Part shown: positions 42,151 through 61,047 of the stretch, piece by piece
How the letters are laid out: every line of letters starts with the position of its first letter
How positions within the stretch are numbered: position 1 is the stretch's first letter
Sequence record: OZ346164.1
DNA: 64,000 bases
Direction: 5' to 3' (one strand)
Origin: a phage
The notes under the pieces: model-generated
Seen by the model: only the letters and a program-made list of their open reading frames with translations
Told to the model about the DNA's origin: nothing
Database searches by the model: none
Program-made: the position numbers and the translations under genes

Positions 42151-42269
42151 AAGTCAAGAGAAAAATTTGTAGCGGATTGAAAAATAATTCTTGATTTGCG
42201 TTCTGTTTTGTGGTAGTCGTGCGCACCCGTTTCATTACAGTTTTGCCAAAAATATTTTTAAAATTTTTA

Positions 42270-42364
42270 TTGACTCTTTGAACGTGGTTATCTAATATTT
42301 GCATCAACGGAGAGGGAATAACCTTCCCCACTAAATAACTAACCTTAAACTAGGAGACTCTAAA
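42270..42364 (+). promoter_or_regulatory. type-A cassette: promoter + hairpin leader + RBS
   Basis: TTGACT-17-TAATAT then GAGAGGGAATAACCTTCCCC hairpin, ACTAAAT, TAAACTAGGAGA, ATG. Confidence 0.55.
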
Positions 42365-42745
42365 ATGGCATATCGTGCACCTAAATTCATCAATAAAGAC
42401 AACTTTCGCAACGCACTGGAGAAGGCACTTGATGAGAATTTCAAAGGTAACGTTATCGTTGTTCACTCGTTCAATTTCAAGTATGATATCAACGGGAACA
42501 AAATCAACCACTACACTGCAACCATGCTAGATGGTACACTATCAAGTGAAAAAGCCGTACTGAATGCACTAGCAGGACGCGGAAAAGTATTAGTAAGATG
42601 TGATAAGAGACGTTATCAAGGCGGCGCATATGGTTACGACGATGCTATTTATCATCTTGAAAATATGGGCTATCAAGTAGAAAAAGCTGGGGTATCACAA
42701 ATCATCGGTAGTGATGGCTACGTGACAATCTTCAAAATTAAATAA
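42365..42745 (+). CDS. small early-type protein
   Basis: 126 aa, behind type-A cassette. Confidence 0.5.
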   Translation: MAYRAPKFINKDNFRNALEKALDENFKGNVIVVHSFNFKYDINGNKINHYTATMLDGTLSSEKAVLNALAGRGKVLVRCDKRRYQGGAYGYDDAIYHLENMGYQVEKAGVSQIIGSDGYVTIFKIK

Positions 42746-42833
42746 AAAGTACTTTACAAGGGGCTTATAGTTCGATAAAGTAAGCCCCAGATAAAGAGCT
42801 TTACCACTAAATCCTAAATTGGAGAACTTAAAA
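42746..42833 (+). repeat. type-B cassette: GC hairpin + conserved leader + RBS
   Basis: AAAGTACTTTACAAGGGGCTTATAGTTCGATAAAGTAAGCCCCAGATAAAGAGCTTTACCACTAAATCC...GGAGA. Confidence 0.55.
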
Positions 42834-43124
42834 ATGGCTACTATCAAAAACGTTGTAATTCCTGCAAAAACTCGTGATGACGCTCGCATTATGGCTAAAA
42901 AGTTAGGCGGGAAAGTGGTTGACAACGGAAAACAATCTGCTGTAAGATGGGGCGTGAAGACTGATAGACAGTTGAAGTTAAAAAATTCACCAATAAACCT
43001 TTTTACATGTGTAAACACTATCGGGAAGACAAATGTATACACGAAAAAGGCATATATTAGACGCGTAGCCTTAACATCCCCCATTCGTACAATGAGAGGT
43101 TATGCAAAACTGAAAATTAACTGA
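42834..43124 (+). CDS. small early-type protein
   Basis: Start placed at conserved ATG after cassette RBS rather than track start 42819. Confidence 0.5.
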   Translation: MATIKNVVIPAKTRDDARIMAKKLGGKVVDNGKQSAVRWGVKTDRQLKLKNSPINLFTCVNTIGKTNVYTKKAYIRRVALTSPIRTMRGYAKLKIN

Positions 43125-43212
43125 TAAAGTACTTTACAGGGGGCTTAAAAGTTGGTATCTTAAGCCCCAGATAAAGAGCTTTACCACTAAATCCTAAACT
43201 GGAGATTCAAAA
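43125..43212 (+). repeat. type-B cassette
   Basis: Near-identical copy of 42746..42833. Confidence 0.55.
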
Positions 43213-43725
43213 ATGAAAACTGTAGACGCTACCTTTGAAGTTGTAAAAGAAAAATTCACCATTATCTATGAAGCGGTAAATTGCTACGAAGCAAGCCATA
43301 ACCTTGATAATTGGAAGTTTACAGATGACCATCAAGGCGGCGTGACTGTTAAAAATCCTAACTATCAGCATAATGCATTTAAATATGCAATCCCTTTGCA
43401 TTACAGCCTTAAACAGCTTTCAAGTGACTATGCAAAACAAGGCCGGGAAAATCCATCGAAAGAGGCTTACACCAGCTTACAGAAAGAACTAGAAAGAGAT
43501 TTAGAGGCTTCAGAATACAACCTTGCCGCGAAAGTTGTGGATGCAAACGGTAACACGGTTTTAGAAAGTTTTTATCTTGGTTATGCTTTCGATTGGTGCT
43601 ATCGTGACGGCGATGATTTAGAGGATAGACTAAAAGAAGAGGTGAACAATTCAGACGCAGAAACTGAAGTATTAGAACGTTTGGAATCGTTGAAAGACTC
43701 AGTGATGAATATCTTTAAGAACTAA
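43213..43725 (+). CDS. small early-type protein
   Basis: 170 aa behind type-B cassette. Confidence 0.5.
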   Translation: MKTVDATFEVVKEKFTIIYEAVNCYEASHNLDNWKFTDDHQGGVTVKNPNYQHNAFKYAIPLHYSLKQLSSDYAKQGRENPSKEAYTSLQKELERDLEASEYNLAAKVVDANGNTVLESFYLGYAFDWCYRDGDDLEDRLKEEVNNSDAETEVLERLESLKDSVMNIFKN

Positions 43726-43817
43726 ATAGCTTTCTTTACACGGGGTTATCAAGCTGGTAGGATAGCCCCAGATAAAGAGATTTATCAAATAAAGCCCTTA
43801 AACTAGGAGATTCTAAA
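43726..43817 (+). repeat. type-B cassette (variant)
   Basis: GGGGTTATCAAGCTGGTAGGATAGCCCC hairpin then conserved leader. Confidence 0.5.
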
Positions 43818-44114
43818 ATGAAATTATCAAATCAAGTGCGTGAAAATCTGAGCAAATTACTCAACAAAATTGATTTCATTGAAACATCAAGGAATAGTCA
43901 TGATGTTATGGAATGGTTACACGGCAAAATAAAAGGCCGTCGTGTAGTGATTTGCTTATGGAATAGTTGCAGGGAATATAAAAAACCTGTATTGCAAGTT
44001 AATATTTATGATGATACTTTTAAAAGTCCTGTAAAGTCTAAAAGCGATTTATTAGAATCCTATGAGATAACTGTAAATGGCAAAGTATCACGTAAAGAGG
44101 AAACACCATGTTAA
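43818..44114 (+). CDS. small early-type protein
   Basis: 98 aa. Confidence 0.45.
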   Translation: MKLSNQVRENLSKLLNKIDFIETSRNSHDVMEWLHGKIKGRRVVICLWNSCREYKKPVLQVNIYDDTFKSPVKSKSDLLESYEITVNGKVSRKEETPC

Positions 44115-44440
44115 TGACTGGTATCACTGCAATCATTGCCATTTTCGCGCTATATAAGGCATATAAAGCCTATAATCTAGCAAATAAGGCAATCACACAG
44201 CAGGTCAGCAATAACCTTGTAGAGAGCTTTCTAGGGCGTCTCAGTGATGAGCAAATAAAGCGGCTAGAGATGAGCTTCAGATACAAAGCGAAAACCTATC
44301 AGATAAGTGACATCTTCAAAGATGATTTTCAGTTAATCGATGATTATAATTCACTAATAAATGCTTTAAATATCAGTGACTTAAAAGACTACTACGCTGT
44401 AATTGTTCAAGAATTGAGCAAACGAAAACAAAACTGTTGA
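44108..44440 (+). CDS. small membrane protein
   Basis: 110 aa, N-terminal TM helix; overlaps previous gene end. Confidence 0.4.
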   Translation: MLMTGITAIIAIFALYKAYKAYNLANKAITQQVSNNLVESFLGRLSDEQIKRLEMSFRYKAKTYQISDIFKDDFQLIDDYNSLINALNISDLKDYYAVIVQELSKRKQNC

Positions 44441-44530
44441 CACTGGTTTTTAGATAGATTAAATTACACATCAACGGGGAGGGAATGACCTTCCCCACTA
44501 AATAAAGTCCTTAAACTAGGAGATTCTAAA
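44436..44530 (+). promoter_or_regulatory. type-A cassette
   Basis: TTGACA-17-TAAATT then GGGGAGGGAATGACCTTCCCC hairpin leader and AGGAG. Confidence 0.55.
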
Positions 44531-44803
44531 ATGTATACTACTAACAACGGTCGCACTTTAAATGTCACACTACGTCACTATGTAGATGGTGTCATGCACT
44601 TTGAAGACTTACAAGCTGAGCAACATATCTTAGATTGGCAAGTAGCAGGACTCCAAAAAACTGCTACGGGATACGGTAAAAAGATTCCAACCAGTTGGAA
44701 AGTACACTACGAAGGACGTTTGCGCAGAATTTATCAGGATGTGCAAAGCAATAGCGCATCGAGTTACATTATAGTAAAAGGCAAAAAACTGCATTTAATG
44801 TAA
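44531..44803 (+). CDS. small early-type protein
   Basis: 90 aa. Confidence 0.45.
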   Translation: MYTTNNGRTLNVTLRHYVDGVMHFEDLQAEQHILDWQVAGLQKTATGYGKKIPTSWKVHYEGRLRRIYQDVQSNSASSYIIVKGKKLHLM

Positions 44804-44889
44804 AGTACTTTACATGGGGCTTGGAAGTTGATATCTTAAGCCCCAGATAAAGAGCTTTACCACTCAATCCTAAATTGGAGAACTTAAAA
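44804..44889 (+). repeat. type-B cassette
   Basis: GGGGCTTGGAAGTTGATATCTTAAGCCCC hairpin then conserved leader. Confidence 0.55.
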
Positions 44890-45294
44890 ATGGCTATTAA
44901 TAACCGTGAATTATCAATGTTAAAAGCACGTTTGACCGTTAATCGAATCAACATTATGACATCATCAGCGCCTGATGAGACATTGCACAACATTATCGGA
45001 AAGATTCAAAGCGTTATTTTAGACGTTGAAAACGTAAAAAGTTCATTGGCTGACGTTGCAGCAGGTATCACGCTAGACGGTGCGCAATATGAAATGTCCG
45101 ACATGTTAGGCAAATCAAAGGTAATGAATAAAGAGCTTGATTTAAAGATGTTCCGATTTGCTGTTAAAGTATGGCTATCCGTCGAGTATGACGCTAATTT
45201 TGCAATCGCTGATTTCTTTGCCACTTGGTTACAACGTAATTTGACAAATCACGATTTTCGTGATGTCTGTGATGCAATTTATGCAGAACTCTAA
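44890..45294 (+). CDS. small early-type protein
   Basis: Start at conserved ATG (MAINNREL) rather than track start 44875. Confidence 0.5.
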   Translation: MAINNRELSMLKARLTVNRINIMTSSAPDETLHNIIGKIQSVILDVENVKSSLADVAAGITLDGAQYEMSDMLGKSKVMNKELDLKMFRFAVKVWLSVEYDANFAIADFFATWLQRNLTNHDFRDVCDAIYAEL

Positions 45295-45303
45295 AAAATT
45301 TTG

Positions 45304-45395
45304 TTGACACTGGTTTTTAGATAGATTAAATTACACATCAACGGGGAGGGAATGACCTTCCCCACTAAATAAAGTCCTAAACTGGAGATTCTAAA
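45304..45395 (+). promoter_or_regulatory. type-A cassette
   Basis: Identical to 44436..44530 over about 85 nt. Confidence 0.55.
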
Positions 45396-45599
45396 ATGGC
45401 TATTATTAACGGTTTAACCATTGAAACTACACACATCAAAGATATCAAAGTTGGCGATATAGTCCTTTCCCACGGCGTAGAAAAAACTGTCACTGCAAAG
45501 GATATCAAAGAGGATTCTTTCATGGGTAGGACTCTTTTCGGTGATTCTTATTGCTTAGGTTACCTTGCAGTTTTAAAAGTTGTCAAAAATAACAAATAA
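45396..45599 (+). CDS. small early-type protein
   Basis: 67 aa. Confidence 0.45.
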   Translation: MAIINGLTIETTHIKDIKVGDIVLSHGVEKTVTAKDIKEDSFMGRTLFGDSYCLGYLAVLKVVKNNK

Positions 45600-45683
45600 A
45601 GTACTTTACATGGGGCTTATAGTTCGATAAAGTAAGCCCCAGATAAAGAGCTTTACACAATCCTTAAACTAGGAGATTAAAAA
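45600..45683 (+). repeat. type-B cassette
   Basis: GGGGCTTATAGTTCGATAAAGTAAGCCCC hairpin. Confidence 0.55.
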
Positions 45684-45932
45684 ATGATGAATTATTTCAA
45701 TATCCCTGATACCTGCCGACTGTTGACACGAGAAGAAAACTTGGGTAAACCTTTTCTTTACCACATGCCAGATAACACACCAAAAACTTATAGTTACAAT
45801 GTCAACCGTTTTACCGCATACGCTGCAAAGAACGGTTATAAGTTGGTCACTCAAAAAGTAATGCTGGTTACAATCGCTGACGAGGTTCCTACGGTTGCAG
45901 TTAAACTAATTTTCTCAAAGAAAGTTAAATAA
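45684..45932 (+). CDS. small early-type protein
   Basis: 82 aa. Confidence 0.45.
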   Translation: MMNYFNIPDTCRLLTREENLGKPFLYHMPDNTPKTYSYNVNRFTAYAAKNGYKLVTQKVMLVTIADEVPTVAVKLIFSKKVK

Positions 45933-46016
45933 AGTACTTTACAAGGGGCTTATAGTTCGATAAAGTAAGCCCCAGATAAAGAGCTTTACACAATCCTTAA
46001 ACTAGGAGATTCAAAA
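45933..46016 (+). repeat. type-B cassette
   Basis: Identical hairpin and leader to 45600..45683. Confidence 0.55.
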
Positions 46017-46559
46017 ATGAAATGCTATCACGGAACTACTCAAGAAAATTTCCTCAACCTGATTAATAACGGTGATAAACCATCAGGCGCATGGAATTGT
46101 TCGGATATGGACGGCAATTTTTACGTGTATCCAGAAAATAAAATCTATGGCGACGATGAGGAAGAAATAGCATCAGAGGGCATTCAGCAAGCTCTAGGCA
46201 ATGCCACTATCACCGCAGCTTTTCAGATGAAGACTCAAAATATTGTTATCTTAGAACTCGATATTCCAGAGGATGAGCTAAATGATGATTATTCTTGTGA
46301 TAATATGTCGAGTGTAGCAAGTTTTACAGAGTACTTTGATGTAAATTGGATTAAAAAGGTCTATACAACAGAGTTTAACGCTATGTATTCACCTTTTTGT
46401 CTTCCTTCATTGGATAACCCAAATTTAAACTATCTTGATGAGCCTCTGGAGCTTCTTGCTAAAAGTGTCCAACAGTCGGACAGTATTCAGGTTTTTTGTG
46501 ACATCATGGACACACTAACGGGAAACATCGCAGAAGAGGATTTAAAGAGCTTTTTCTAA
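46017..46559 (+). CDS. small early-type protein
   Basis: 180 aa acidic protein. Confidence 0.45.
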   Translation: MKCYHGTTQENFLNLINNGDKPSGAWNCSDMDGNFYVYPENKIYGDDEEEIASEGIQQALGNATITAAFQMKTQNIVILELDIPEDELNDDYSCDNMSSVASFTEYFDVNWIKKVYTTEFNAMYSPFCLPSLDNPNLNYLDEPLELLAKSVQQSDSIQVFCDIMDTLTGNIAEEDLKSFF

Positions 46560-46591
46560 AAACCTATGCAATCGCCTTATAAACACTGATT

Positions 46592-46612
46592 AGCCCCTCA
46601 CAGGGGCTTTTA
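46592..46612 (+). terminator. terminator-like hairpin
   Basis: AGCCCCTCACAGGGGCT followed by TTT. Confidence 0.4.
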
Positions 46613-46625
46613 AGAGGCTTAAATC

Positions 46626-46859
46626 ATGCTTACAACCGTTTATCTTATCCTTTCTATTTGTAATGGTCATTCATGTGATTTTAAAGGGCTTGATGAGTTT
46701 ACAGGAAGTAAAGAAAATGCTGTTCAGGTCTGTCAGATAGCAAGGCAAGACTACCCCGCCAGTGATGACATACAATGTTACTTTAAGACAGAAGATGAAG
46801 ATGGTATCTATTTCGATAGTGTAGACGGTCAATATGAAATAATTATAGAAAAAGACTAG
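46626..46859 (+). CDS. small Cys-containing protein
   Basis: 77 aa. Confidence 0.4.
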   Translation: MLTTVYLILSICNGHSCDFKGLDEFTGSKENAVQVCQIARQDYPASDDIQCYFKTEDEDGIYFDSVDGQYEIIIEKD

Positions 46860-46948
46860 ACAAGCCTGATAAAAATCTGTAAATTACTAATCAACGGGGA
46901 GGGAATGACCTTCCCCACTAAACAAAATCCTAAACTGGAGATTCAAAA
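46857..46948 (+). promoter_or_regulatory. type-A cassette
   Basis: TAGACA-17-TAAATT then GGGGAGGGAATGACCTTCCCC hairpin leader. Confidence 0.5.
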
Positions 46949-47290
46949 ATGGCTTATGTAACCGTAATTACCGATAAAGCTGGCGCATCTTGGTCAACTC
47001 AGGTTAGTGATAAGATGTCGCCTATGCAGTGCCTAAAATACTTTGAACAGTGGAACAAAGGCGAGGACACAAGCCCCTTTCACGTAATGCAGATTATTCA
47101 TGTAGACAATGAAGGGAAGAAAACAACCCTGAATAGTGAGTACTACGCAAGCCGTTTTGAAACGAGAAGTAAAGCAATGAAGCTCTTACGTGAGGCCGGA
47201 TATGGTCACATTGCCGCGATAATCTGGGATGACCTTCTAAAAAGTCAACGTATCAGCTATGTAAAGCCTGAAAAAATATTCATCAGTTAA
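46949..47290 (+). CDS. small early-type protein
   Basis: 113 aa. Confidence 0.45.
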   Translation: MAYVTVITDKAGASWSTQVSDKMSPMQCLKYFEQWNKGEDTSPFHVMQIIHVDNEGKKTTLNSEYYASRFETRSKAMKLLREAGYGHIAAIIWDDLLKSQRISYVKPEKIFIS

Positions 47291-47419
47291 TCAATAACTT
47301 ACAAAAAACTTTTAAAAAAGTGTTGACAATACCCCTTGACATTGGTAACTTTGTTCGAGGGGGTTTATCTAAAAGGGATTCACTTAAAAGATTCTTTATA
47401 GATAAGCTTAAAAAATTGC

Positions 47420-47509
47420 TTGCAATCAGCTATCAAAACAAGTAAATTACTAATCAACGGGAGGGATGACCTCCCCACTAAATAAAATCCTTAAACTAGG
47501 AGAGTCAAA
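47420..47509 (+). promoter_or_regulatory. type-A cassette
   Basis: TTGCAA-17-TAAATT then GGGAGGGATGACCTCCCC hairpin leader. Confidence 0.5.
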
Positions 47510-48040
47510 ATGAACAAGTTTAAAGCTATCAACTTCATTCGTTCAAATGCTGTAATGTCAAAACCTGTAAAAGACACATACGAATTTCGCTGCAATGGGG
47601 TACACTTTGCAACCATCACTAAGTCAGAAAACGGGGCTTATTACGTACATCGTCGTAATGTTGCAACCGTTGTAGTCTCTCACTTTATGCAAGCTGTAGC
47701 GGAGTTATTACCGTTATTCTTAGAGATTTATCTAGGTGAGTGTAAAAACGTTCGTAACCACGTTAAAAACCTTTTAAACGGTTATAAAATGGCTTATGAA
47801 CGTTCTATCAAGTCCTTGAACAAGTTCTATAAAGCCCCTGTAAATACTGTTTCAATGGCTTACAGTGTAAGCGGTGAGTTGGTTAGCCTCTTCGAAGTAG
47901 AAGAAATTGAACTATATGACTCACGTCCTAGCGGTTACTCTAAGACACTGGGAGAAGGATTATCTTTCAATATCAAGAACTTAGAAAAAACTTTAAAAGA
48001 TATTGAAAAAGATATTGACGAAACAATAAAAAGTCTGTAA
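47510..48040 (+). CDS. small early-type protein
   Basis: 176 aa. Confidence 0.45.
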   Translation: MNKFKAINFIRSNAVMSKPVKDTYEFRCNGVHFATITKSENGAYYVHRRNVATVVVSHFMQAVAELLPLFLEIYLGECKNVRNHVKNLLNGYKMAYERSIKSLNKFYKAPVNTVSMAYSVSGELVSLFEVEEIELYDSRPSGYSKTLGEGLSFNIKNLEKTLKDIEKDIDETIKSL

Positions 48041-48108
48041 ATTACTAATCAACGGGGAGGGAATGACCTTCCCCACTAAATAAAACCCTTAAACTAGGAG
48101 ATTCAAAA
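48014..48108 (+). promoter_or_regulatory. type-A cassette
   Basis: TTGACG-17-TAAATT (inside end of previous gene) then hairpin leader. Confidence 0.5.
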
Positions 48109-48357
48109 ATGGCAACTATCCGCGCTACTGTTAACGAGTTCGGTTTTTCCTCTCTGGATGTTAAATTTGACATTGTAGGCACTGATAACGCCTTTGAAAT
48201 GGTGAAAGGTCTTATCAGTCAGACCATCAAAGGCTATAATCCTTCTAATGAGTTCTGGGAGGAAACAAAACAGGAAGTTCTTAAAGAGGGTTATTCTTTT
48301 CACTATTGGGGTGAAAAAATTGTCTCCCTGTACTACGACAAAGAAGGCACTAACTAA
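48109..48357 (+). CDS. small early-type protein
   Basis: 82 aa, last gene of array. Confidence 0.45.
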   Translation: MATIRATVNEFGFSSLDVKFDIVGTDNAFEMVKGLISQTIKGYNPSNEFWEETKQEVLKEGYSFHYWGEKIVSLYYDKEGTN

Positions 48358-48395
48358 TCCACGCAGCGGGGCTAAATAGCCCCAGATACCTTTAC

Positions 48396-48423
48396 AGCCC
48401 CTTTCCCATAGGGGCTTTTTTAC
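48396..48423 (+). terminator. rho-independent terminator
   Basis: AGCCCCTTTCCCATAGGGGCT hairpin plus T-run; ends small-gene array. Confidence 0.6.
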
Positions 48424-48425
48424 GT

Positions 48426-49398
48426 CTATCCAATCCTCATACAACCCCTTTCCCTTTCCTTTCCAGAATCTTATCAGACCTTAAAAAGCAATAACTTTAC
48501 AGCCTTTTACTAAGTCAATTAATTGGCCTTATTAATAAGCCCTTAAACATAAGCCAATAACCCCAGAAAGGGGGCAACCCATTTAAACGCCATATAAAGC
48601 CCTATAACGGCCTTTTTAACCTAACTTAAGGGATTGCATTACCTCACCCTTAAAAGCCCTTTATAAAGCTTCACAGAGCCTTAAAAGAATCTTATAAGGG
48701 TGTGTTAAGACTTTTGAAGATTTGTTAAGAGCTTGAGAGAGTTGTTAAGAAATTGTTAAGGATATTTTAAAATTTTGCAAAGTACTTGTAAGGGAGCTGT
48801 TAAGGGCTACCAAGCAGATATACATCTTCTACAGATATTTTTCAGTTCCTTCAAAGACCCTAAAAAATGACTTGATAGTCCTATTTTATAAAAATTTTAA
48901 GATTCTGAATAATTACCTAGACAGTCTTTTAAAAATACAGGTAATAACAGGCTTATAAGATACCTTGTTAGTACCGTGTTAGACCTTGTGAGATAAGGTC
49001 TGTAAAGATATTCCTGTTAAGTTTGTTAAAACAGTCTATATAGAGGCTTAGTAATACCTAGTGAACACCTATAGAGGGTATCATAGCTAACCTAGAGATT
49101 AAGAGGTGTATAGGAGCTTCTAAGAGGGTATAGAGAGATGGTTAAGGTGATTGTATAGGTTGTTAAGAAGGCTTGTTAGAGGGCTTGTTAGAAGGGTTAT
49201 ACAGAGGGCTATTAAGACCACTAGATAGTTACTAAGATACTATATAGTACTATATAACTATATAGAGAGTAAGATTAAGAGGGTTGTTAAGAAGGATAGA
49301 TATTTTGTTCACATATGCTGGTGACCCAGAGGTTGGGACAACCGATGGAATTTTATAAAAATTAAAAAGCCCCCAATTAAGGAGGCTCTTAAGATATT
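48426..49398. repeat. about 1 kb non-coding region with dense short direct repeats
   Basis: No ORF of 60 aa or more on either strand; many copies of CCTTAAAAG-like, TGTTAAGA-like and TATAGAG-like units. Confidence 0.7.
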
Positions 49399-50004
49399 TT
49401 AAATCAGACTTTCTAAAACTGTTTTTAGTGATGACTTGGTTGTCTGATAAAAATGAGTGAATCCGTTGTTGTTATCGAATATCTGCATCATAACAGCATC
49501 TCCCTTGATTGGGTACACTCGGATATCATAGTGAAACCCATTAAAGACAGCAGAACCATTACAGAATACACTAAAATCACTTGCTGAGATATACTCTTCA
49601 TGACCTGTGATTTTTATACAGACACCTTTACTCGGTCTCTTAGGGTTGATATCTTCCATAATAGACATACTCTGTCCACCAAGAGATACCATAGTGACCA
49701 CTTTACGGTTCTTCTGTCTGAAGTACATTTTAACCTTCTGCAAGGTGTCTTCATAGAACGGATAAGACTTCTCTACAAAGATTCCTTCAAGTGGCTCTTT
49801 ACCGTTTACAATACCTCTGGTATGGCGTACTGAGAAGATAAGTTGCTCTAGCAGGTCAAGGCTTTCTTCGGATAGTGCTTCCCGAATATCGCTCCAGTCA
49901 AGTACTAGGTAGTTACCTTCAACTTCTTTTAAGTTATCTTTTTCCATAGCTATCACACCATTATCGTAAAACTTGGTAGGCTGGTACTGCAAACTTGTTG
50001 CCAT
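49399..50004 (-). CDS. hypothetical protein
   Basis: 201 aa ORF. Confidence 0.4.
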   Translation of the reverse strand: MATSLQYQPTKFYDNGVIAMEKDNLKEVEGNYLVLDWSDIREALSEESLDLLEQLIFSVRHTRGIVNGKEPLEGIFVEKSYPFYEDTLQKVKMYFRQKNRKVVTMVSLGGQSMSIMEDINPKRPSKGVCIKITGHEEYISASDFSVFCNGSAVFNGFHYDIRVYPIKGDAVMMQIFDNNNGFTHFYQTTKSSLKTVLESLI

Positions 50005-50425
50005 TGTTCTTAATAAGGTCTTCTTCTGTTACTAAGAATGTAATCCCACATAAGTGCGTATAGTGGCTATCATACTCAAATATTTTAAGTAAGTATTTAC
50101 CATCATGATAAACAGATTCTACTACACCTTTTGCAACAATCTTTCCAGTCTTGAAATCTTTAAGAGGGTATGTATTACCGACTCTAGGGACTGTTTTCAT
50201 CTCAGGCTCTTTTAGCTTATCACCAGCTTCTACATCACCTAGCAAGTGAGAACTTTCAAAAGCTACATATTGCATATAAGCCTCTGAGCATTCCCAGATA
50301 AAACAATGTACAAGAGCCTTAGCAGCATGTCTTGAACAATTCAACTTATCACAAATCTCTTTGTACATTTCATCTTTAGTTGAGTTGTCAAGCATTGCTT
50401 TTTGAACGACTTCTTTAATTTTCAT
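49961..50425 (-). CDS. hypothetical protein
   Basis: 154 aa ORF. Confidence 0.4.
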   Translation of the reverse strand: MKIKEVVQKAMLDNSTKDEMYKEICDKLNCSRHAAKALVHCFIWECSEAYMQYVAFESSHLLGDVEAGDKLKEPEMKTVPRVGNTYPLKDFKTGKIVAKGVVESVYHDGKYLLKIFEYDSHYTHLCGITFLVTEEDLIKNNGNKFAVPAYQVLR

Positions 50426-50477
50426 TTCGCTACCTTCTAAGTTTCTACAAAGGGGCTATCAAGTAACCCCTAAGTTA

Positions 50478-50702
50478 TTACTCAGACTTTTCAGTCTTCT
50501 TGTCGGATTTCTTACTAGTCTTCTTCTCAGCTTTCTGTTCAGGCTCCTTCTCAGAAGTTGCCTTAATAACCATATCAAGAAGCTCTGATAAGTCACTCTT
50601 CAGCAAAGTAACAGGCTGCTCGTTGTAGAAGTTTTTGTCAAGATAAACTTTGAACTCTTCTATAGAAGGAAATCCAAAAATTGGTACAGGTGTCTTAATC
50701 AT
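50478..50702 (-). CDS. hypothetical small protein
   Basis: 74 aa, Lys-rich C-terminus. Confidence 0.3.
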   Translation of the reverse strand: MIKTPVPIFGFPSIEEFKVYLDKNFYNEQPVTLLKSDLSELLDMVIKATSEKEPEQKAEKKTSKKSDKKTEKSE

Positions 50703-50778
50703 TGTTTAGTCTCTCCATAGGCATCTTTTAAGATTGCCTTGTTAATCATTTCAGCGATTGCAAAACGAACACATACAG

Positions 50779-51312
50779 CTATAATTGTAGGTTGCATTCT
50801 TTACTTACCTCTTCAAGTTTAACTTCAGAGTCCTTAAGTCGTTTCTTATGAACTCTGAATCTTAGTAGTGAGATTATGATACCAGCTAAAGGAACAGCAT
50901 ACAAGTACCAAACATCATATACCTTTGCAGTAATCTGTGTAATAGTCAAGTCTTGAGCTATGTAGCTGATTGCTGATACGGCTAGTAATGTTGCTAAGAA
51001 GAAAACCAGTATCATGGCAATATTCAGACAACCTCTGGCATGGTATTCATGCTTAATGCACTTATTCTTCTCTTCAACAACACTGTTGTAGTCATTTGTA
51101 AAGTCTCTGTAGAAAGCTTTCAAGTATTCTTGAGTGTAGCCTTCAAAGCAACCTGTACCGTACCAGTAATCACCACCAAAATGTGCTATGATACCGGTAT
51201 CTCCATTTGGTTTTGTTACTCTTAGGGAGACATGATGACCAGTCTTCTGGTAATCTATTTTGTATCTTTCTTCGTAAATCATTTCCCAACCCCTCTCAAT
51301 CGTTTGTTCCAT
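50779..51312 (-). CDS. membrane protein
   Basis: 177 aa with two C-terminal TM segments. Confidence 0.4.
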   Translation of the reverse strand: MEQTIERGWEMIYEERYKIDYQKTGHHVSLRVTKPNGDTGIIAHFGGDYWYGTGCFEGYTQEYLKAFYRDFTNDYNSVVEEKNKCIKHEYHARGCLNIAMILVFFLATLLAVSAISYIAQDLTITQITAKVYDVWYLYAVPLAGIIISLLRFRVHKKRLKDSEVKLEEVSKECNLQL

Positions 51313-51497
51313 TCAAGGTCAACAAATCTTTGCAGAACTTTCCCTCTAGGTGTTACGCCTTTTAAATCTGCATCATAGCAATGGTAAAAATCGCCTTCAG
51401 CGTACTTACCATAGCATTTTCTGATATTCTGGCTTCTGCGATACTGTTCTAACAGGGAAAGTTTGTAGTAATCTTCAACTGTAGTTAACTTTTTCAT
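51279..51497 (-). CDS. hypothetical small protein
   Basis: 72 aa. Confidence 0.3.
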   Translation of the reverse strand: MKKLTTVEDYYKLSLLEQYRRSQNIRKCYGKYAEGDFYHCYDADLKGVTPRGKVLQRFVDLEWNKRLRGVGK

Positions 51498-51580
51498 TCT
51501 TTTACCATGTCTCTTCTCTAGAAACTAAAAAGGGAACTACCTCTCGATAGCTCCCATCATAATCAGTTTTGTATACTCGG

Positions 51581-52162
51581 TCAAGAGTATTTTTTAGGCA
51601 GTAATGCACTGCGCTTGTTACTCTCTTCACTCAATAGTGCAATGAAATCATCACTTTTACCTTTCCACGGGCTGAATGAAGGGATGTGTTCACGGATAGC
51701 ATCAATCACTGTTTTAAGTGCTGTGTTCTTCATCCACCAATCAGAATCTGCTGATGCTACCACGTAGTATCCACCATCATCAGTTAAAATTGGCTCTGAA
51801 ATACATGGTGAAATCAAAGTGGTGATGATTGAACCATTGTTCATGTAATATGTGCGCTTAATAACCTTTTCAAGAAGCTTGTGAAGGTCACCAAACAGTG
51901 TTACAAGTTCTTTGTGGTCGATGTCTTTTTCTAGGCTTGCTCGGTACTTCAATAGTGCAGCATCAACCTCTCTGTCATTAAACTTGAAGTACTGGACTTC
52001 ATCAACAAGGCAGACACTAATGTTATTAACATTCATAGTCAACTTGCAAACTTTTGCAGGGGAATTGATACTCGGTTGAAAAAGTGCAACACACCCTTCA
52101 ATGTTTCCAAAATGTTGGACTAATGTTACTTGTGGAATGATATCCTGTTGCTCTTCGGACAT
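51581..52162 (-). CDS. hypothetical protein
   Basis: 193 aa ORF. Confidence 0.4.
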   Translation of the reverse strand: MSEEQQDIIPQVTLVQHFGNIEGCVALFQPSINSPAKVCKLTMNVNNISVCLVDEVQYFKFNDREVDAALLKYRASLEKDIDHKELVTLFGDLHKLLEKVIKRTYYMNNGSIITTLISPCISEPILTDDGGYYVVASADSDWWMKNTALKTVIDAIREHIPSFSPWKGKSDDFIALLSEESNKRSALLPKKYS

Positions 52163-52506
52163 TACAGTTTCCTCATTAAATACTTTTTAAGTTGTGTGTT
52201 AGGTTTCTCAAAAACTTCTATAGAAGATATCTTGACAGCTTCACCACGCATACCTGTATGTTTGAATATGTAATACTCTAACATCCCTATGTACTTTGCT
52301 GGTAAGTCATATTTGACATACACCGTCACAGAATCTTCAAACTCAACAACCTTTGTACCATCTTTGTAGTTGAACTCTTTAGGATGGTTGTAGTTGTCTA
52401 TATCGTACATTAAAAAGAGTCTTTTACGTTGTAAGTCAAGCTTATTTGTTAAAGACTCTTTGATATCTGAGAAGTTTTTGTACACTGTGACATGGAGCTT
52501 ACTCAT
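52162..52506 (-). CDS. hypothetical protein
   Basis: 114 aa ORF. Confidence 0.35.
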   Translation of the reverse strand: MSKLHVTVYKNFSDIKESLTNKLDLQRKRLFLMYDIDNYNHPKEFNYKDGTKVVEFEDSVTVYVKYDLPAKYIGMLEYYIFKHTGMRGEAVKISSIEVFEKPNTQLKKYLMRKL

Positions 52507-52792
52507 CGTTAAACTCTCTGACGAAGAAATAGTTGACTTTATTATTACCTACCATAAGGTCAAAGCAGGTATTTTCAAAAGGCTTGTTGTAGGCATCGTA
52601 TGCAGTGTACGTATCAGCTACTTGTTTAGTGTTGAGCTTTTTACTTGATGGGTTTAAGAGGCCACCATACAGCTTCTTGATAGCCTCTTCTACAACAGAC
52701 CAGATGATTTCGTCAGTAATTTCTTCGTACAGGTCAAGTTCACGCTCTAGTGAGAAGTCACAAATAGGGAAAACAACCTGTACTTTACTCAT
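52499..52792 (-). CDS. hypothetical protein
   Basis: 97 aa ORF. Confidence 0.35.
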   Translation of the reverse strand: MSKVQVVFPICDFSLERELDLYEEITDEIIWSVVEEAIKKLYGGLLNPSSKKLNTKQVADTYTAYDAYNKPFENTCFDLMVGNNKVNYFFVREFNDE

Positions 52793-53181
52793 TAACGAAT
52801 AACCTGTGAGACTTGAATTGCTTCAGTTACAGACAAATCACCAACTTTCTCTTCTTTGATAAAAGTGAAGGTGAGTTCAACAGGCTCTTGCTCTTCTTGC
52901 TCAACTGGAATACCGTTAAGCTCATCACGGATTGATTGAGTTGTCCAATCTTCCCCACCATCTGGATAATGGATTGCATAAAGTGGGAACTCCATGTCAT
53001 ACCAACCAAATACAGGGCAGCCATCTGCATCATCTCGCATCCTACGTAGTGTGCTACCTGAGCCTGTAAAACGAAGGCTGATATTACCATTACACTCAAA
53101 AATTACTGCATCAGCAAGACCAGCGTCTTCACGGCCATCATGGCCAAAAGTGTCAACTTTTACTTGAATCTCTTTATTCAT
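52792..53181 (-). CDS. hypothetical protein
   Basis: 129 aa ORF. Confidence 0.35.
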   Translation of the reverse strand: MNKEIQVKVDTFGHDGREDAGLADAVIFECNGNISLRFTGSGSTLRRMRDDADGCPVFGWYDMEFPLYAIHYPDGGEDWTTQSIRDELNGIPVEQEEQEPVELTFTFIKEEKVGDLSVTEAIQVSQVIR

Positions 53182-53572
53182 AGAAACCTCTCTCTGCTTG
53201 TTCGATTTTTGCTCTTAAAGCTTCGCAATGTTGTAAATGATAGTTAGCTTCTTGTTCATGTGTTGCTAACTGCCTTTCCAGAACAGTTTTATAATAACTT
53301 GCAAGTTGCTCTTTTGTCAATGGGTGCTCTGAAATAATATCAAGTCCACTTTCACCGAGAGGGTTGAATTGTCCATGTTCGTTGACATTGTAAGTCTCAA
53401 ACTTGAACAGGCCATTGTTCACAGACTCAATAGGTGACAGTTCAACAAGCTCTACAGTAAACCGTGTATATACCTTGTCACCTCTTGAAACCACATTGTT
53501 CCCGACAATGCGTACAAGCGAGCCATTACGAGTGTACTTAAAAGTCCCAAAGTCACTAGCCCAAAGTTTCAT
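53174..53572 (-). CDS. hypothetical protein
   Basis: 132 aa ORF. Confidence 0.35.
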   Translation of the reverse strand: MKLWASDFGTFKYTRNGSLVRIVGNNVVSRGDKVYTRFTVELVELSPIESVNNGLFKFETYNVNEHGQFNPLGESGLDIISEHPLTKEQLASYYKTVLERQLATHEQEANYHLQHCEALRAKIEQAERGFYE

Positions 53573-53587
53573 AGTTTTCTCCTTAGA

Positions 53588-53613
53588 AAATAAAAAAGGC
53601 TCCCGAAGGAGCC
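53588..53613 (-). terminator. rho-independent terminator (minus strand)
   Basis: GGCTCCTTCGGGAGCC hairpin followed by T-run on minus strand, after lysozyme gene. Confidence 0.55.
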
Positions 53614-53623
53614 TATGAAGATA

Positions 53624-54088
53624 TTACTTTGGGTATACACTGTCAAGATAAATGTCAGCTTCCATTCTACGTCTGTTTTTCAGTCCGTTTGAAGTGACCT
53701 TCTTACCTTTGACTGTAACCTTGTTCCACCACTGCATAGCTTCTGCACAACCCACCTTATTACCAGCATTGTGGCGCTTGATAAATGTGGAATCCTGCAT
53801 AGCTGTGATACCAATGTTGTATGTTTCACTTACAAGTGCGTCAAACTCATTCTGAGAAGTTGGAACATTGACGGCTTTGTTCACTGCTGCAACAAACTTT
53901 TCAACATCTGCGAGAAGATACTGTTCAGCTTGTTCAGCGGTAATCTTCATACCCATCTTAACAGGTTTTCCGTCAATACGGATTGTCCCATACCCGATTG
54001 TTGGGATTCCGGCAGAATCTTCGTAAGCCTCTAACTTCAGACCTTCAAAGAACTTAATAGCTTCTAAACCTTTTCTTGAGAGTTGCAT
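53624..54088 (-). CDS. endolysin, T4-type lysozyme
   Basis: EGLKLEAYEDSAGIPTIGYG carries Glu/Asp/Thr catalytic arrangement of T4 lysozyme family. Confidence 0.8.
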   Translation of the reverse strand: MQLSRKGLEAIKFFEGLKLEAYEDSAGIPTIGYGTIRIDGKPVKMGMKITAEQAEQYLLADVEKFVAAVNKAVNVPTSQNEFDALVSETYNIGITAMQDSTFIKRHNAGNKVGCAEAMQWWNKVTVKGKKVTSNGLKNRRRMEADIYLDSVYPK

Positions 54089-58630: not shown

Positions 58631-58708
58631 TCTCTGTTTAGCTCAGCTTGGTAGAGCGTTCCGTTTGGGGCGGTAAGGCCGGAGGTTCAAGTCCTCCAAC
58701 AGAGACCA
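58631..58708 (+). tRNA. tRNA-Pro (anticodon UGG)
   Basis: 7 bp acceptor, D stem GCTC/GAGC, loop TTTGGGG, T arm GGAGG-TTCAAGT-CCTCC. Confidence 0.75.
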
Positions 58709-58715
58709 AATTAAT

Positions 58716-58793
58716 GTTCCAGTAGACAAAATGGTATAGTCACCACTCTTTCAAAGTGGATATCTGAGGGTTCAAATCCCTTCTGGAACGCCA
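58716..58793 (+). tRNA. tRNA-Glu (anticodon UUC)
   Basis: Acceptor GTTCCAG/CTGGAAC, anticodon stem CCACT/AGTGG, loop CTTTCAA, encoded CCA. Confidence 0.75.
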
Positions 58794-58883
58794 GTTTTGA
58801 CAGAAGACCAATTACAGCAAACTTAATCTACTCATCTGAAAGTTAATCGGACAAAGAAGATATTTGGTCTGGTCATTAAGAAT

Positions 58884-58960
58884 TGCGGGTATAGAGAAAG
58901 GGCGTCTCACATGTCTCATTAGCATGGTATCGGCAGGTTCGACTCCTGCACCCGCCTCCA
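58884..58960 (+). tRNA. tRNA with anticodon CAU (Met or Ile2), 1-72 mismatch
   Basis: Loop CTCATTA, T arm GCAGG-TTCGACT-CCTGC, acceptor pairs 2-7 only. Confidence 0.6.
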
Positions 58961-59042
58961 AATTTACAGAAGACCGTTTACAGCAATATTTATTAAATTT
59001 TTAGCGGAAAAATTGAAAGATACGGTCTGGTAATACTAAATA

Positions 59043-59120
59043 TGGTTAGGAAGCACATAAGGTATGTGCGGTCGCCTGTTAAGCGAATGGCACAGGGTTC
59101 GAATCCCTGACTAACCGCAA
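59043..59120 (+). tRNA. tRNA-Asn (anticodon GUU)
   Basis: D stem GCAC/GTGC, loop CTGTTAA, T arm CAGGG-TTCGAAT-CCCTG. Confidence 0.7.
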
Positions 59121-59128
59121 AATTAAAT

Positions 59129-59216
59129 GTGTCGTTATCCCGTAGATGGTAGCGGTGGGGACTGTAAATCCCTTGTCATTGAGACTCGGTAGGTTCGACT
59201 CCTACACGGCACACCA
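59129..59216 (+). tRNA. tRNA-Tyr (anticodon GUA), long variable arm
   Basis: Acceptor GTGTCGT/ACGGCAC, loop CTGTAAA, about 15 nt variable arm, encoded CCA. Confidence 0.75.
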
Positions 59217-59221
59217 ATAAA

Positions 59222-59298
59222 GGCTATGTAGTTTAACTGGAGAAAATACTCCCCTGTCACGGGAGATGATGTGAGTTCAAGTCTCATCGTAGCCGCCA
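59222..59298 (+). tRNA. tRNA-Asp (anticodon GUC)
   Basis: Acceptor GGCTATG/CGTAGCC, stem CTCCC/GGGAG, loop CTGTCAC, encoded CCA. Confidence 0.75.
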
Positions 59299-59499
59299 AT
59301 TTTGAGAGGGCTATTTAGCCCCTCCCTTAAAGAGTTCTTACGAGTATTCTTTAAAGGAGCAGAAGACCAAATACAGCAAGAATGTATGATATTTTCAAGC
59401 CAATTCAATTTTGAAAAATTTAAAACTTGGTCTGGCTCAACAAATTTACAGAAGACCGTTTACAGCAAAACTTAAACAATCTATTTCTCGGTAAAGAAA

Positions 59500-59540
59500 A
59501 GGCGAAGGTTCGATTCCTTCACTCGGCAGAGGTCGAGTTG
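59500..59540 (+). ncRNA. tRNA-like T-arm plus acceptor minihelix (not a full tRNA)
   Basis: GAAGG-TTCGATT-CCTTC T-arm-like hairpin directly followed by ACTCGGC-AGAG-GTCGAGT hairpin and D-loop-like GTTGGTGTAATGGTAG. Confidence 0.4.
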
Positions 59541-59730
59541 GTGTAATGGTAGCACTTAAGATGATAAACAACGGTCTGGTAATTATCTTTGCAGTAGCTT
59601 ATGTGGCTAATTATGTCGTCCCATGAGTGCCGATGAATTTCCTTAGCATGATTCTAGATTAGCTTAATAGGAAATGACTCTACAGACCCTTTAGCAAGGT
59701 CTGCGTAGGTTACTGCAAAGATGATTTAAT

Positions 59731-59806
59731 GGAAGTGTAGCAGAATGGTGATGCGGCAGACTTTTAATCTGACAGGCGATGGGTTCGAATCCCTCCACTT
59801 CTACCA
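59731..59806 (+). tRNA. tRNA-Lys (anticodon UUU)
   Basis: Acceptor GGAAGTG/CACTTCT, loop CTTTTAA, TTCGAAT T-loop, encoded CCA. Confidence 0.65.
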
Positions 59807-59811
59807 AAAAT

Positions 59812-59888
59812 GGTTCAGTCGCAGATAAGGTAATGCAAGGGTTTCATAAGCCCTATGAATGTGGGTTCGATTCCCATCTGAACCTCCA
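59812..59888 (+). tRNA. tRNA-Met (anticodon CAU)
   Basis: Acceptor GGTTCAG/CTGAACC, stem AGGGT/GCCCT, loop TTCATAA, encoded CCA. Confidence 0.7.
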
Positions 59889-59890
59889 AT

Positions 59891-59966
59891 GCTGTGAAAG
59901 CACATATGGATGTGCATTCGGCTGATAACCGAAAGGCAGAAGGTTCGAATCCTTCTCACAGTACCA
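59891..59966 (+). tRNA. tRNA-Ile (anticodon GAU)
   Basis: Stem TTCGG/CCGAA, loop CTGATAA, T arm GAAGG-TTCGAAT-CCTTC, encoded CCA. Confidence 0.75.
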
Positions 59967-59982
59967 ATTTCAATAAAGTTGT

Positions 59983-60010
59983 TGACATTAAGATGTGACT
60001 ACTTTATAGT
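59983..60010 (+). promoter_or_regulatory. sigma70-like internal promoter in tRNA cluster
   Basis: TTGACA, 16-17 bp spacer, TATAGT. Confidence 0.5.
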
Positions 60011-60522: not shown

Positions 60523-60535
60523 AAGTCTTATTAGG

Positions 60536-60958: not shown

Positions 60959-60965
60959 AATTAAT

Positions 60966-61041: not shown

Positions 61042-61047
61042 AACAAT

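What the first reader, a model, noticed from the sequence alone, without database searches (positions are those of the whole stretch)
48426..49398. About 1 kb ORF-free region packed with short direct repeats between convergent operons
In an otherwise tightly packed genome this segment has no ORF of 60 aa or more on either strand. It contains many imperfect direct copies of at least three short units: (A/G)CC(C)TTAAAAG in the first 300 bp, then interleaved (T)GTTAAGA (15 or more copies) and TATAGAG (about 10 copies), including a run CTATATAGTACTATATAACTATATAGAG. Iteron-like density of this kind is typical of replication origins, packaging or terminal-repeat junctions (T7-like genomes carry short-repeat arrays next to their terminal repeats), or protein-titrating arrays. 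It sits exactly where the plus-strand small-gene operon and the minus-strand operon converge.
Basis: seen in the sequence. Interest (0 to 1): 0.7.

Follow-up and report, generated by a model that had tools for sequence, protein, structure and literature searches.

The report
Truncated genome-end region of a FelixO1-like phage
The repeat-rich gene-free stretch is the place where the ends of this Felix O1-like phage chromosome are cut and joined, a known feature of the group, but this copy oddly lacks about 600 bases, including most of the terminal repeat and one of its two cut sites.

Summary
In detail: 48358-49398 has no real ORF, is bracketed by two convergent terminators, and is packed with one-orientation short words (TGTTAAGA, TATAGAG, CTATATAG) far above shuffles.

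The window is a Felixounavirus. This intergenic region is homologous (about 90%) to the one that holds the mapped 570-660 bp direct terminal repeat (DTR) in relatives: UAB_Phi87 (Bal31 plus sequencing drop-off), Pr103Blw and Ro111lw (PhageTerm), and several records that start exactly there.

- Two invariant boundary words carry the same TGTTAAGGG core in inverted orientation.
- Inside the DTR, TGTTAR words are phased at about 10.5 bp and are better conserved than their spacers.
- The whole non-coding block is as conserved across three genera as the flanking genes, or more so.

Best reading: this is the concatemer junction and packaging-recognition region, analogous to the T7 short-repeat arrays around its terminal repeat. 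An origin role is untested.

The unexpected part: the window lacks about 600 bp that essentially all relatives examined retain. Only the last 108 bp of the DTR and the right boundary word (cut at 48811|48812) survive. The left boundary word is absent from all 64 kb. A real deletion and an assembly or curation artefact cannot be told apart without reads.

The parts
48109..48357 (+). ORF23-like gene (82 aa), last gene of the plus-strand small-gene operon. In a linear virion it would be the last gene before the right end.
   Evidence: same position as the gene next to the right DTR in Pr103Blw. PHROG 4559, unknown function, no Pfam match. Felix O1 gp23 was detected in virions (PMC3185647).
48396..48423 (+). 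Intrinsic terminator of the plus-strand operon.
   Evidence: stem-loop AGCCCCTTTCCCATAGGGGCT followed by TTTTTT. Conserved in relatives.
48358..48703 (.). Left non-coding block (sub-terminal unique DNA of the right genome end). It carries CCTTAAAAG and TATAAAG-like words and is cut short by about 113-124 bp at its right side.
   Evidence: 97.2% identical to Logan contig L030 and 86% to allfine. Word counts.
48703..48704 (.). Deletion junction (GGGTGT|GTTAAGAC; the T at 48703 is ambiguous). About 596-600 bp present in relatives is missing here.
   Evidence: The junction 19/20-mers are absent from IMG/VR and JGI metagenome contigs.
48704..48811 (+). Remnant (last 108 bp) of the direct terminal repeat. 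It holds five forward TGTTAR words (48703, 48723, 48743, 48754, 48798) and the palindrome ATTTTAAAAT (48764-48773).
   Evidence: Aligns to the 3' end of the mapped DTRs of SPJ41, Pr103Blw and UAB_Phi87. Word positions.
48798..48817 (+). Right DTR boundary word TGTTAAGGGCTACC|AAGCAG. The predicted cut lies between 48811 and 48812.
   Evidence: Exact and unique in the window. Identical in 25 of the 26 relatives checked, including Moogle; SUSP1 has 1 mismatch. It coincides with the record ends of SPJ41 and Pr103Blw and with the sequenced end of UAB_Phi87, which stops 2 nt further.
48812..49398 (+). Right non-coding block (sub-terminal unique DNA of the left genome end). It has an AT-rich stretch (about 48872-48915), eight forward TGTTAR words, four TATAGAG words and CTATATAG palindromes (49036; 49240-49265).
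   Evidence: 99.5% identical to phage heid. 72-75% identical to Suspvirus and Mooglevirus.
49365..49390 (-). Intrinsic terminator of the minus-strand operon.
   Evidence: Annotated as a terminator at the same place in KhF2 and Moogle.
49399..50004 (-). ORF24-like gene (201 aa), last gene of the minus-strand operon. In a linear virion it would be the first gene after the left end.
   Evidence: PHROG 4330, unknown function. The identical protein occurs in phage heid and in two Logan contigs that all have the full-length intergenic region.

Best explanation
The region is the genome-end (concatemer-junction) region of a Felix O1-like myophage.

In relatives, replicated DNA carries one copy of a 570-660 bp segment between the two convergent operons. 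The packaging nuclease cuts at two fixed sites at its borders, and the segment is duplicated so that every virion chromosome starts and ends with it (a short direct terminal repeat).

Both cut sites carry the same core, TGTTAAGGG, pointing outward: left ...TGCTA|GCCCCCTTAACA..., right ...TGTTAAGGGCTACC|AAGCAG....

The many TGTTAR words inside the repeat sit on one face of the helix (about 10.5 bp phasing). I infer that they, together with the TATAGAG and CTATATAG words in the flanking blocks, form the platform where a still unidentified recognition protein binds, bends the DNA and positions the large terminase. That protein would do the job of a small terminase, which has not been found in this group.

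What is shown: the homology, the mapped ends in relatives, the invariance of the two words, the phasing and conservation of the words, and the absence of coding or known RNA. What is inferred: that the words are protein-binding sites used for end recognition.

In this window the structure is truncated. About 600 bp are missing, so only the right cut site and 108 bp of the repeat remain.
For: Identity of the window:
- It is a Felixounavirus. 256 phage records match 48300-49500, mostly at 80-95% identity.

Mapped ends in relatives:
- UAB_Phi87 has a 608-bp DTR, mapped by Bal31 digestion plus sequencing drop-off. Its published sequence starts AACATTTTCTTAACAA and ends GATGTTAAGGGCTACCAA.
- Pr103Blw has a 581-bp DTR by PhageTerm, annotated at both record ends with the ORF24-like and ORF23-like genes next to it.
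- Ro111lw has a 613-bp DTR.
- SPJ41 has a 613-bp repeat at both record ends.
- Six further records start exactly at one or the other boundary.
- An IMG/VR contig ends at the left boundary.

Boundary words:
- Both words are near-invariant in the full-length relatives checked, including Mooglevirus.

Constraint on the non-coding block:
- It is 72-78% identical to Suspvirus and Mooglevirus, against 55-76% for the flanking genes.
- No ORF of 40 aa or more is conserved.
- There is no convincing Rfam match.

The TGTTAR words:
- Columns inside the DTR are 0.974 conserved, against 0.870 for other DTR columns. Only 21 of 2000 circular shifts reach the whole-region TGTTAR-versus-other difference of 0.069.
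- Periodicity peaks at 10-10.5 bp in three genera. 0 of 2000 jittered controls reach it.

Analogy with T7:
- T7 shows the same kind of one-orientation heptamer arrays inside and on both sides of its terminal repeat.
- In T7, insertions near the repeat boundary are among the few essential positions at the genome ends.
Against: - No binding protein is known, and no experiment links the words to packaging.
- In the right-hand flanking block the TGTTAR words are not better conserved than their surroundings (0.869 versus 0.888).
- In the window itself too few words remain for the phasing to be significant (246 of 2000).
- The window lacks the left cut site. If the sequence is faithful, the phage must make its ends in some other way than the model says.
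- Physical ends were not measured for this phage.
Confidence: 0.62

Rival explanations
1. The missing 600 bp is an assembly, curation or data-handling artefact. The real phage has the full 1.6-1.7 kb region with a normal terminal repeat, and the only copy of the double-coverage block was cut out or lost at slightly wrong coordinates.
For: - Every full-length relative examined keeps the segment: 255 of 256 phage records, 21 of 21 loci with both anchors, and the three contigs encoding the identical ORF24-like protein.
- The gap (596-600 bp) is almost exactly one DTR length (591-592 bp in the same relatives) but shifted about 115-124 bp. This is what cutting by a coverage plot would give.
- The gap removes an invariant cut site.
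- The junction shows no homology, so ordinary repeat collapse cannot explain it, but a hand or pipeline cut-and-join could.
- DTRs are a known trouble spot in phage assemblies (PMC10438801).
Against: - No reads are available.
- The usual artefact is loss of the second copy, not of the only copy plus unique DNA.
- The flanks are otherwise clean and 97-99.5% identical to relatives.
Confidence: 0.55
2. The region is, or also contains, a replication origin. The phased short repeats would be initiator-binding iterons next to AT-rich DNA that melts.
For: - Dense one-orientation repeats with helical phasing.
- AT-rich stretches next to them, for example 48872-48915 and ATTTTAAAAT at 48764-48773.
- Strong conservation of non-coding DNA.
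- From my own reading of the sequences, not from a scan: a DnaA-box-like word TTATTCACA in relatives, TTGTTCACA in the window at 49306-49314.
- T7 has secondary origins (phiOL, phiOR) right next to its terminal repeat (annotation).
Against: - The units are 6-8 bp and degenerate, not the 17-22 bp of classical iterons.
- No initiator gene is adjacent; the flanking genes have no assignable function.
- The GC-skew change here simply follows the gene-strand switch.
- This role is not exclusive of the packaging role.
Confidence: 0.2
3. The arrays act on incoming or resident DNA in another way. They could be a buffer or decoy at the chromosome ends, an ejection pause signal like the non-coding repeat region of T5 (from memory), or a sink for a host or phage DNA-binding protein.
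For: - In the virion, both ends carry about 1.1-1.2 kb of non-coding DNA with genes pointing outward. The first DNA to enter therefore carries no gene.
- There are several word families, including palindromes (CTATATAG, TTACGTAA). This suggests more than one binding protein.
Against: - There is no evidence for stepwise ejection in this group.
- This idea does not explain why the same core word sits at both cut sites.
Confidence: 0.1
4. The repeats are functionless: slippage products or decayed remnants of the promoter/hairpin/RBS cassettes that precede the small genes upstream.
For: - CCTTAAAC occurs in the upstream gene cassettes and resembles the CCTTAAAAG words of the left block.
- Local 10-25 bp tandem duplications exist.
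Against: - The block is alignable end to end at 75-76% with two other genera and is at least as conserved as the neighbouring genes.
- Word positions and phasing are conserved.
Confidence: 0.03

Closest known systems
Short direct terminal repeat region of Felixounavirus genomes (UAB_Phi87, Pr103Blw, Ro111lw, Felix O1)
   Same: Same locus between the same two convergent genes. About 90% nucleotide identity. Identical right boundary word. The same word families.
   Different: The window lacks about 600 bp: 113-124 bp of unique DNA, about 483 of about 591 bp of the repeat, and the left boundary word. The papers report only the length and sequence of the repeat. The papers and passages I searched did not describe the boundary words, the phasing or the arrays.
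Bacteriophage T7 concatemer junction: terminal repeat flanked by short-repeat arrays (called SRL and SRR in the T7 sequence paper, from memory)
   Same: A short exact terminal repeat. One-orientation heptamers (CCTAAAG in T7) lie inside it and in arrays on both sides. The right-side T7 array even contains similar words (CCTAAAGAGGG, TCTTAGAGAGGG, CCTATAGAG). The function of the arrays is unresolved there too, and the repeat boundary is sensitive to insertions.
   Different: No detectable sequence homology was sought or shown. T7 spacing is about 13 bp and its repeat is 160 bp. T7 has a podovirus genome with promoters reading inward from the left end, whereas here genes point outward at both ends.
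Terminase recognition sites with phased binding repeats (lambda cosB R sites, SPP1 pacL/pacR), from general knowledge
   Same: Several short repeats on one helical face next to the nuclease cut site, thought to wrap around a small terminase oligomer.
   Different: No small terminase has been identified in Felix O1-like phages. Two cut sites 570-660 bp apart give exact repeats rather than cohesive or headful ends.
Iteron-type replication origins of plasmids and phages
   Same: Clustered direct repeats with helical phasing next to AT-rich DNA.
   Different: The units are much shorter and degenerate. There is no adjacent initiator gene. The location coincides with the mapped chromosome ends.

Membership tests
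Felixounavirus/Ounavirinae short-DTR genome-end region | Lies in the large non-coding gap between the convergent ORF23-like and ORF24-like genes, bracketed by their terminators | tested here: met
Felixounavirus/Ounavirinae short-DTR genome-end region | Right boundary word TGTTAAGGGCTACC|AAGCAG present | tested here: met
   Exact at 48798-48817 and unique in the window. Near-invariant in relatives.
Felixounavirus/Ounavirinae short-DTR genome-end region | Left boundary word TGCTA|GCCCCCTTAACA present | tested here: not met
   No match with up to 3 mismatches anywhere in the 64 kb. Present in all the full-length Felixounavirus loci checked and in Moogle; not found in SUSP1 at 2 mismatches or fewer.
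Felixounavirus/Ounavirinae short-DTR genome-end region | Complete repeat unit of about 570-660 bp between the two words | tested here: not met
   Only the last 108 bp (48704-48811) are present.
Felixounavirus/Ounavirinae short-DTR genome-end region | Virion DNA of this phage physically ends at these positions and carries the segment twice | not testable with these tools
   Needs reads or virion DNA.
T7-type concatemer junction with short-repeat arrays | One-orientation short words inside the terminal repeat and in arrays on both flanks | tested here: met
   T7. Felixounavirus junction and window. This is a resemblance in architecture only.
T7-type concatemer junction with short-repeat arrays | Common descent with the T7 packaging system (terminase or site homology) | not tested
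   The terminase was not analysed here. The literature places Felix O1-like TerL in its own DTR cluster.
Iteron-type replication origin | Three or more direct repeats of about 17-22 bp at regular spacing | tested here: inconclusive
   The repeats are 6-8 bp words at 10-11 bp or multiples of that. Some 20-25 bp tandem units exist.
Iteron-type replication origin | Adjacent initiator gene | tested here: not met
   The flanking genes have no Pfam match and fall in PHROGs of unknown function.
Iteron-type replication origin | Origin activity | not testable with these tools
   Needs an experiment.
Known structured RNA (Rfam) | Match to a covariance model at or near its gathering score | tested here: not met
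   The only match is Phe_leader at 25.6 bits against a gathering score of 55, and it lies over the terminator.

The most novel reading that the evidence does not exclude
The 600-bp gap is real and the phage is viable. It would then be a Felix O1-like phage that has lost the invariant left cut site and four fifths of its terminal repeat. In that case only the right-hand site (48798-48817) and its nearby TGTTAR words are needed. The repeat would be re-defined, for example from the TGTTAAGGGC-like reverse word AGCCCTTAAACA at 48538 to 48811, about 270 bp, or the ends would be made by a different route. This would be a natural deletion experiment on how exact terminal repeats are specified.
Probability: 0.2. 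Interest if true: 0.6.

Novelty: new member of a known kind. Interest (0 to 1): 0.38.

Why it matters
Felix O1-like phages are widely used for Salmonella and E. coli typing, biocontrol and therapy, and no small terminase or packaging site has been defined for them. This analysis yields a concrete, testable model of end recognition:
- two invariant boundary words with an inverted common core;
- helically phased copies of that core inside the repeat;
- conservation of the non-coding block above that of the neighbouring genes.

For this particular genome, the practical message is that the terminal region is incomplete. Either the sequence needs correcting before it is used as a reference, or the phage is an informative natural deletion mutant.

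Tried and rejected
- Rfam scan of 47500-50000 at E up to 1: only a sub-threshold hit over the terminator.
- Sigma-70 promoter scan: 6 sites against 5.0 expected, so nothing.
- Conserved small ORFs: none of 40 aa or more shared among 26 sequences.
- Searches for the deletion junction (a 19-mer in IMG/VR, a 20-mer in JGI metagenome contigs): no hit.
- Exact-protein look-up of the ORF23-like protein: not on record. The ORF24-like protein led only to full-length relatives, so the source of the window was not found.
- The missing segment is not elsewhere in the window.
- MAFFT placed the gap misleadingly in the 4-sequence alignment. BLAST and direct reading fixed the junction.
- AAGCTT (a HindIII site) starts exactly at the left breakpoint in relatives. 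The cut position does not fit and the right side has no site, so I dismissed this as coincidence.
- An 8-bp direct repeat, AAGAATCT, lies near both breakpoints but cannot produce the observed junction.
- The reverse word AGCCCTTAAACA at 48538 looked like a possible replacement for the left site. It is shared with full-length relatives L029 and L030, so it is not compensatory.
- The Kolesnikvirus record Fifi106 was fetched to extend the boundary-word comparison. The stored version is not rotated to its ends and starts in unannotated, apparently coding, sequence.
- The PhageMaP paper on Bas63 (a Felixounavirus) says nothing in its text about this region.
- Flanking proteins: no informative family.

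Full report
**1. The observation**

The stretch between the ORF23-like gene (48109-48357, +) and the ORF24-like gene (49399-50004, -) has no ORF above 33 aa apart from the tail of an antisense ORF. Each converging operon ends in an intrinsic terminator: 48396-48416 on the + strand and 49390-49365 on the - strand.

The short words are real and are not a composition effect. In 48426-49398, against 500 dinucleotide shuffles:
- TGTTAAGA with up to one mismatch occurs 13 times on the + strand and twice on the - strand (shuffle mean 1.2, max 5).
- GTTAAGA with up to one mismatch occurs 16 times (mean 4.1, max 10).
- TATAGAG occurs 4 times exactly and 13 times with one mismatch, some overlapping (mean 4.8, max 10).
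- CTATATAG with up to one mismatch occurs 6 times (mean 1.3, max 5).
- The CCTTAAAAG family of the first 300 bp is weak: 4 copies, which the best shuffle also reaches.

Exact TGTTAAGA copies cluster nowhere else in the window. The caveat is that '15 or more' and 'about 10' hold only for degenerate copies.

**2. What the window is**

The region matches 256 phage records, nearly all Felixounavirus (Felix O1-like myophages of Escherichia, Salmonella, Shigella and Citrobacter), mostly at 80-95% identity. No record is the source. The best match over 44000-54000 is KhF2 at 92.8%.

In Felix O1 the same gap lies between ORF23 and ORF24. The Felix O1 genome paper does not discuss it, beyond inferring 'short terminal repeats' from the genome size and finding gp23 in virions.

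**3. The region holds the chromosome ends in relatives**

- UAB_Phi87 ends were mapped by Bal31 digestion and sequencing drop-off. The result was a 608-bp direct terminal repeat. Its published sequence runs from AACATTTTCTTAACAA... to ...GATGTTAAGGGCTACCAA.
- PhageTerm gave 581 bp for Pr103Blw and 613 bp for Ro111lw.
- The Pr103Blw record annotates the repeat at 1-581 and 87841-88421, in the same orientation as the window. The ORF24-like gene lies 631 bp inside the left end and the ORF23-like gene 457 bp inside the right end.
- SPJ41 carries an identical 613-bp repeat at both record ends, and MET-P1-301 a 544-bp one.
- Six further records start exactly at one or the other boundary.
- An IMG/VR contig stops at the left boundary.

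In window orientation the boundaries read ...GTAAATGCTA|GCCCCCTTAACATTTTCTTAACAA... on the left and ...TGTTAAGGGCTACC|AAGCAGATATACATC... on the right.

These two words are practically invariant in the relatives checked (UAB_Phi87, the 21 loci with both anchors, Pr103Blw, Logan contig L030, SUSP1 and Moogle), including Mooglevirus. The distance between them is 567-658 bp. For UAB_Phi87 it is 614 bp. This equals the experimental 608 bp once the 8-nt and 2-nt offsets of the published sequence are allowed for.

Both words contain the same core in inverted orientation: TGTTAAGGG followed by 5 nt (right) or 3 nt (left) to the cut.

**4. Anatomy and constraint**

The reconstructed Pr103Blw junction is 457 bp of left block, 581 bp of repeat and 631 bp of right block. 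It has 26 forward and 3 reverse TGTTAR words:
- The three reverse copies sit at the very left edge of the repeat.
- 18 of the forward copies fill the repeat.
- The last forward copy in the repeat is part of the right boundary word.

Adjacent spacings are mostly 11, 20-22 and 31 bp. A periodicity scan peaks at 10-10.5 bp in Felixounavirus, Suspvirus and Mooglevirus, and none of 2000 jittered controls reaches the observed value.

In a 26-sequence alignment (the window was left out of the conservation scoring), the TGTTAR columns inside the repeat are 0.974 conserved against 0.870 for the remaining repeat columns. Only 21 of 2000 circular shifts reach the whole-region TGTTAR-versus-other difference of 0.069. 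In the right block there is no such difference.

The whole non-coding block aligns end to end at 75-76% with SUSP1 and Moogle. Per segment it is 72-78% identical, against 55-76% for the flanking genes. The ORF24-like protein itself is only about 50-55% identical between these genera.

No ORF of 40 aa or more is conserved, there is no convincing Rfam match and there is no promoter excess. So this is non-coding DNA under purifying selection, with words whose position, orientation and helical phase are kept.

**5. Mechanism proposed**

Shown:
- The locus is the concatemer junction of a short-DTR phage.
- The two cut positions are fixed and marked by inverted copies of one core word.
- Phased copies of the same word fill the repeat.

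Inferred:
- A DNA-binding protein recognises TGTTAAG(G). Candidates are the missing small-terminase equivalent or a domain of the packaging complex; only a large terminase has been identified in this group.
- It coats one face of the repeat, bends it, and places the nuclease at the outermost, outward-pointing copies.
- The segment between the cuts is then duplicated, as in other exact-DTR phages.

The TATAGAG and CTATATAG words of the flanks (forward in the right block, mostly reverse in the left block) may bind a second factor.

A role as a replication origin is compatible with the same anatomy but has no specific support. I put it at about 0.2, and it is not exclusive of the packaging role.

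**6. The unexpected part**

The window is about 600 bp shorter than its relatives:
- The anchor-to-anchor distance is 905 bp, against 1487-1692 bp in 21 of 21 relatives.
- 255 of 256 phage records contain the missing segment.
- The three contigs that encode the identical ORF24-like protein also contain it.

Against the closest relative, Logan contig L030 (97.2% identical on the left, 98.2% on the right), the gap is a clean 600-bp loss at GGGTGT|GTTAAGAC, window 48703|48704, with 1 nt of ambiguity and no homology. It removes:
- 113-124 bp of unique left-block DNA;
- the left boundary word;
- about 483 of about 591 bp of the repeat.

It leaves 108 bp (48704-48811) and the intact right word (48798-48817). 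The left word is not found anywhere in the 64 kb, and the missing segment is not elsewhere in the window. The junction is absent from IMG/VR and from JGI metagenome contigs.

The junction is also a mosaic boundary relative to phage heid: 99.5% identical on the right and 75.6% on the left.

The gap is almost exactly one repeat length but shifted about 120 bp. That looks more like someone or something cutting out the 'double-coverage block' at imprecise coordinates than like biology. Loss of an invariant cut site also argues against viability. I therefore favour an artefact (about 0.55) over a real deletion (about 0.2-0.35), but nothing here can decide it.

**7. Comparison with known systems**

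- Membership in the Felixounavirus genome-end region is met for location and for the right boundary word. It is not met for the left word or for a complete repeat.
- The architecture resembles the T7 concatemer junction. I checked this on the T7 sequence. There are eleven CCTAAAG words in one orientation in the first 480 nt, three of them inside the 160-bp repeat and the rest in an array just after it. Related words (CCTAAAGAGGG, TCTTAGAGAGGG, CCTATAGAG) sit just before the right-end repeat. This is a resemblance, not shown homology.
- A genome-wide insertion screen of T7 found the genome ends mostly tolerant, except near the repeat boundary. This fits the idea that the boundary is the critical element.
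- Iteron origins and known RNAs fail or are inconclusive on their defining features (see the membership table).

**8. Verdict**

- The feature is a known kind of thing, the terminal-repeat junction of a Felix O1-like phage, so it is not very surprising.
- The papers and passages I searched did not describe the inverted common core at both cut sites or the phased word array, and both are easy to test.
- The truncated state of this copy is unexplained and needs the reads.

Noticed in passing
window 42259-48108: The small plus-strand genes upstream are each preceded by a repeated cassette. It consists of a TTGACA-type promoter-like box, a GGGGAGGGAATGACCTTCCCC hairpin and a CCTTAAACTAGGAGATTC ribosome-binding stretch (5-9 copies, 62-95% alike). 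These correspond to the 57-bp and 39-bp direct repeats reported for Felix O1. The CCTTAAAC word resembles the CCTTAAAAG words of the left non-coding block.
   Followed up: partly
window 58632-63556: Cluster of 25 tRNA genes, all on the + strand, typical of Felix O1-like phages.
   Followed up: no
window 48037-50100: Mosaic boundary at the deletion junction. DNA to the right is 99.5% identical to phage heid, while DNA to the left is only 75.6% identical to heid but 94-97% identical to two Logan contigs (SRR23493905, SRR23493926).
   Followed up: partly
window 48490-48610: In this lineage (window, L029, L030), the reverse TATAGAG words (CTCTATA) that other Felixounaviruses such as Pr103Blw carry in the left block are all changed or lost (for example CTCTATAG to CTTTACAG). 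A reverse boundary-like word, AGCCCTTAAACA, appears at 48538.
   Followed up: partly
window 49306-49314: By my own reading of the sequences, TTGTTCACA is one mismatch from a DnaA-box consensus. Relatives have TTATTCACA, which fits TTATNCACA. It is a single site and could be chance.
   Followed up: no
L014 (IMG/VR contig 3300045988_004931), last 150 nt: The contig ends at the left DTR boundary with a stuttered duplication of the first 50-70 nt of the repeat. This is probably an assembler artefact at a physical end.
   Followed up: partly
Pr103Blw junction 420-457 (L034 about 1400-1441); the corresponding DNA is missing from the window: Two copies of the palindrome TTACGTAA lie just outside the left cut site in relatives. 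The palindrome ATTTTAAAAT lies about 40 bp inside the right cut site (window 48764-48773). These are possible dimer-binding sites.
   Followed up: no
L035 (SUSP1) 4032-5725 and L036 (Moogle) 4029-5771: The 1.7-kb non-coding block is kept in size, position and word content in two other Ounavirinae genera. SUSP1 lacks a recognisable left boundary word at 2 mismatches or fewer.
   Followed up: partly
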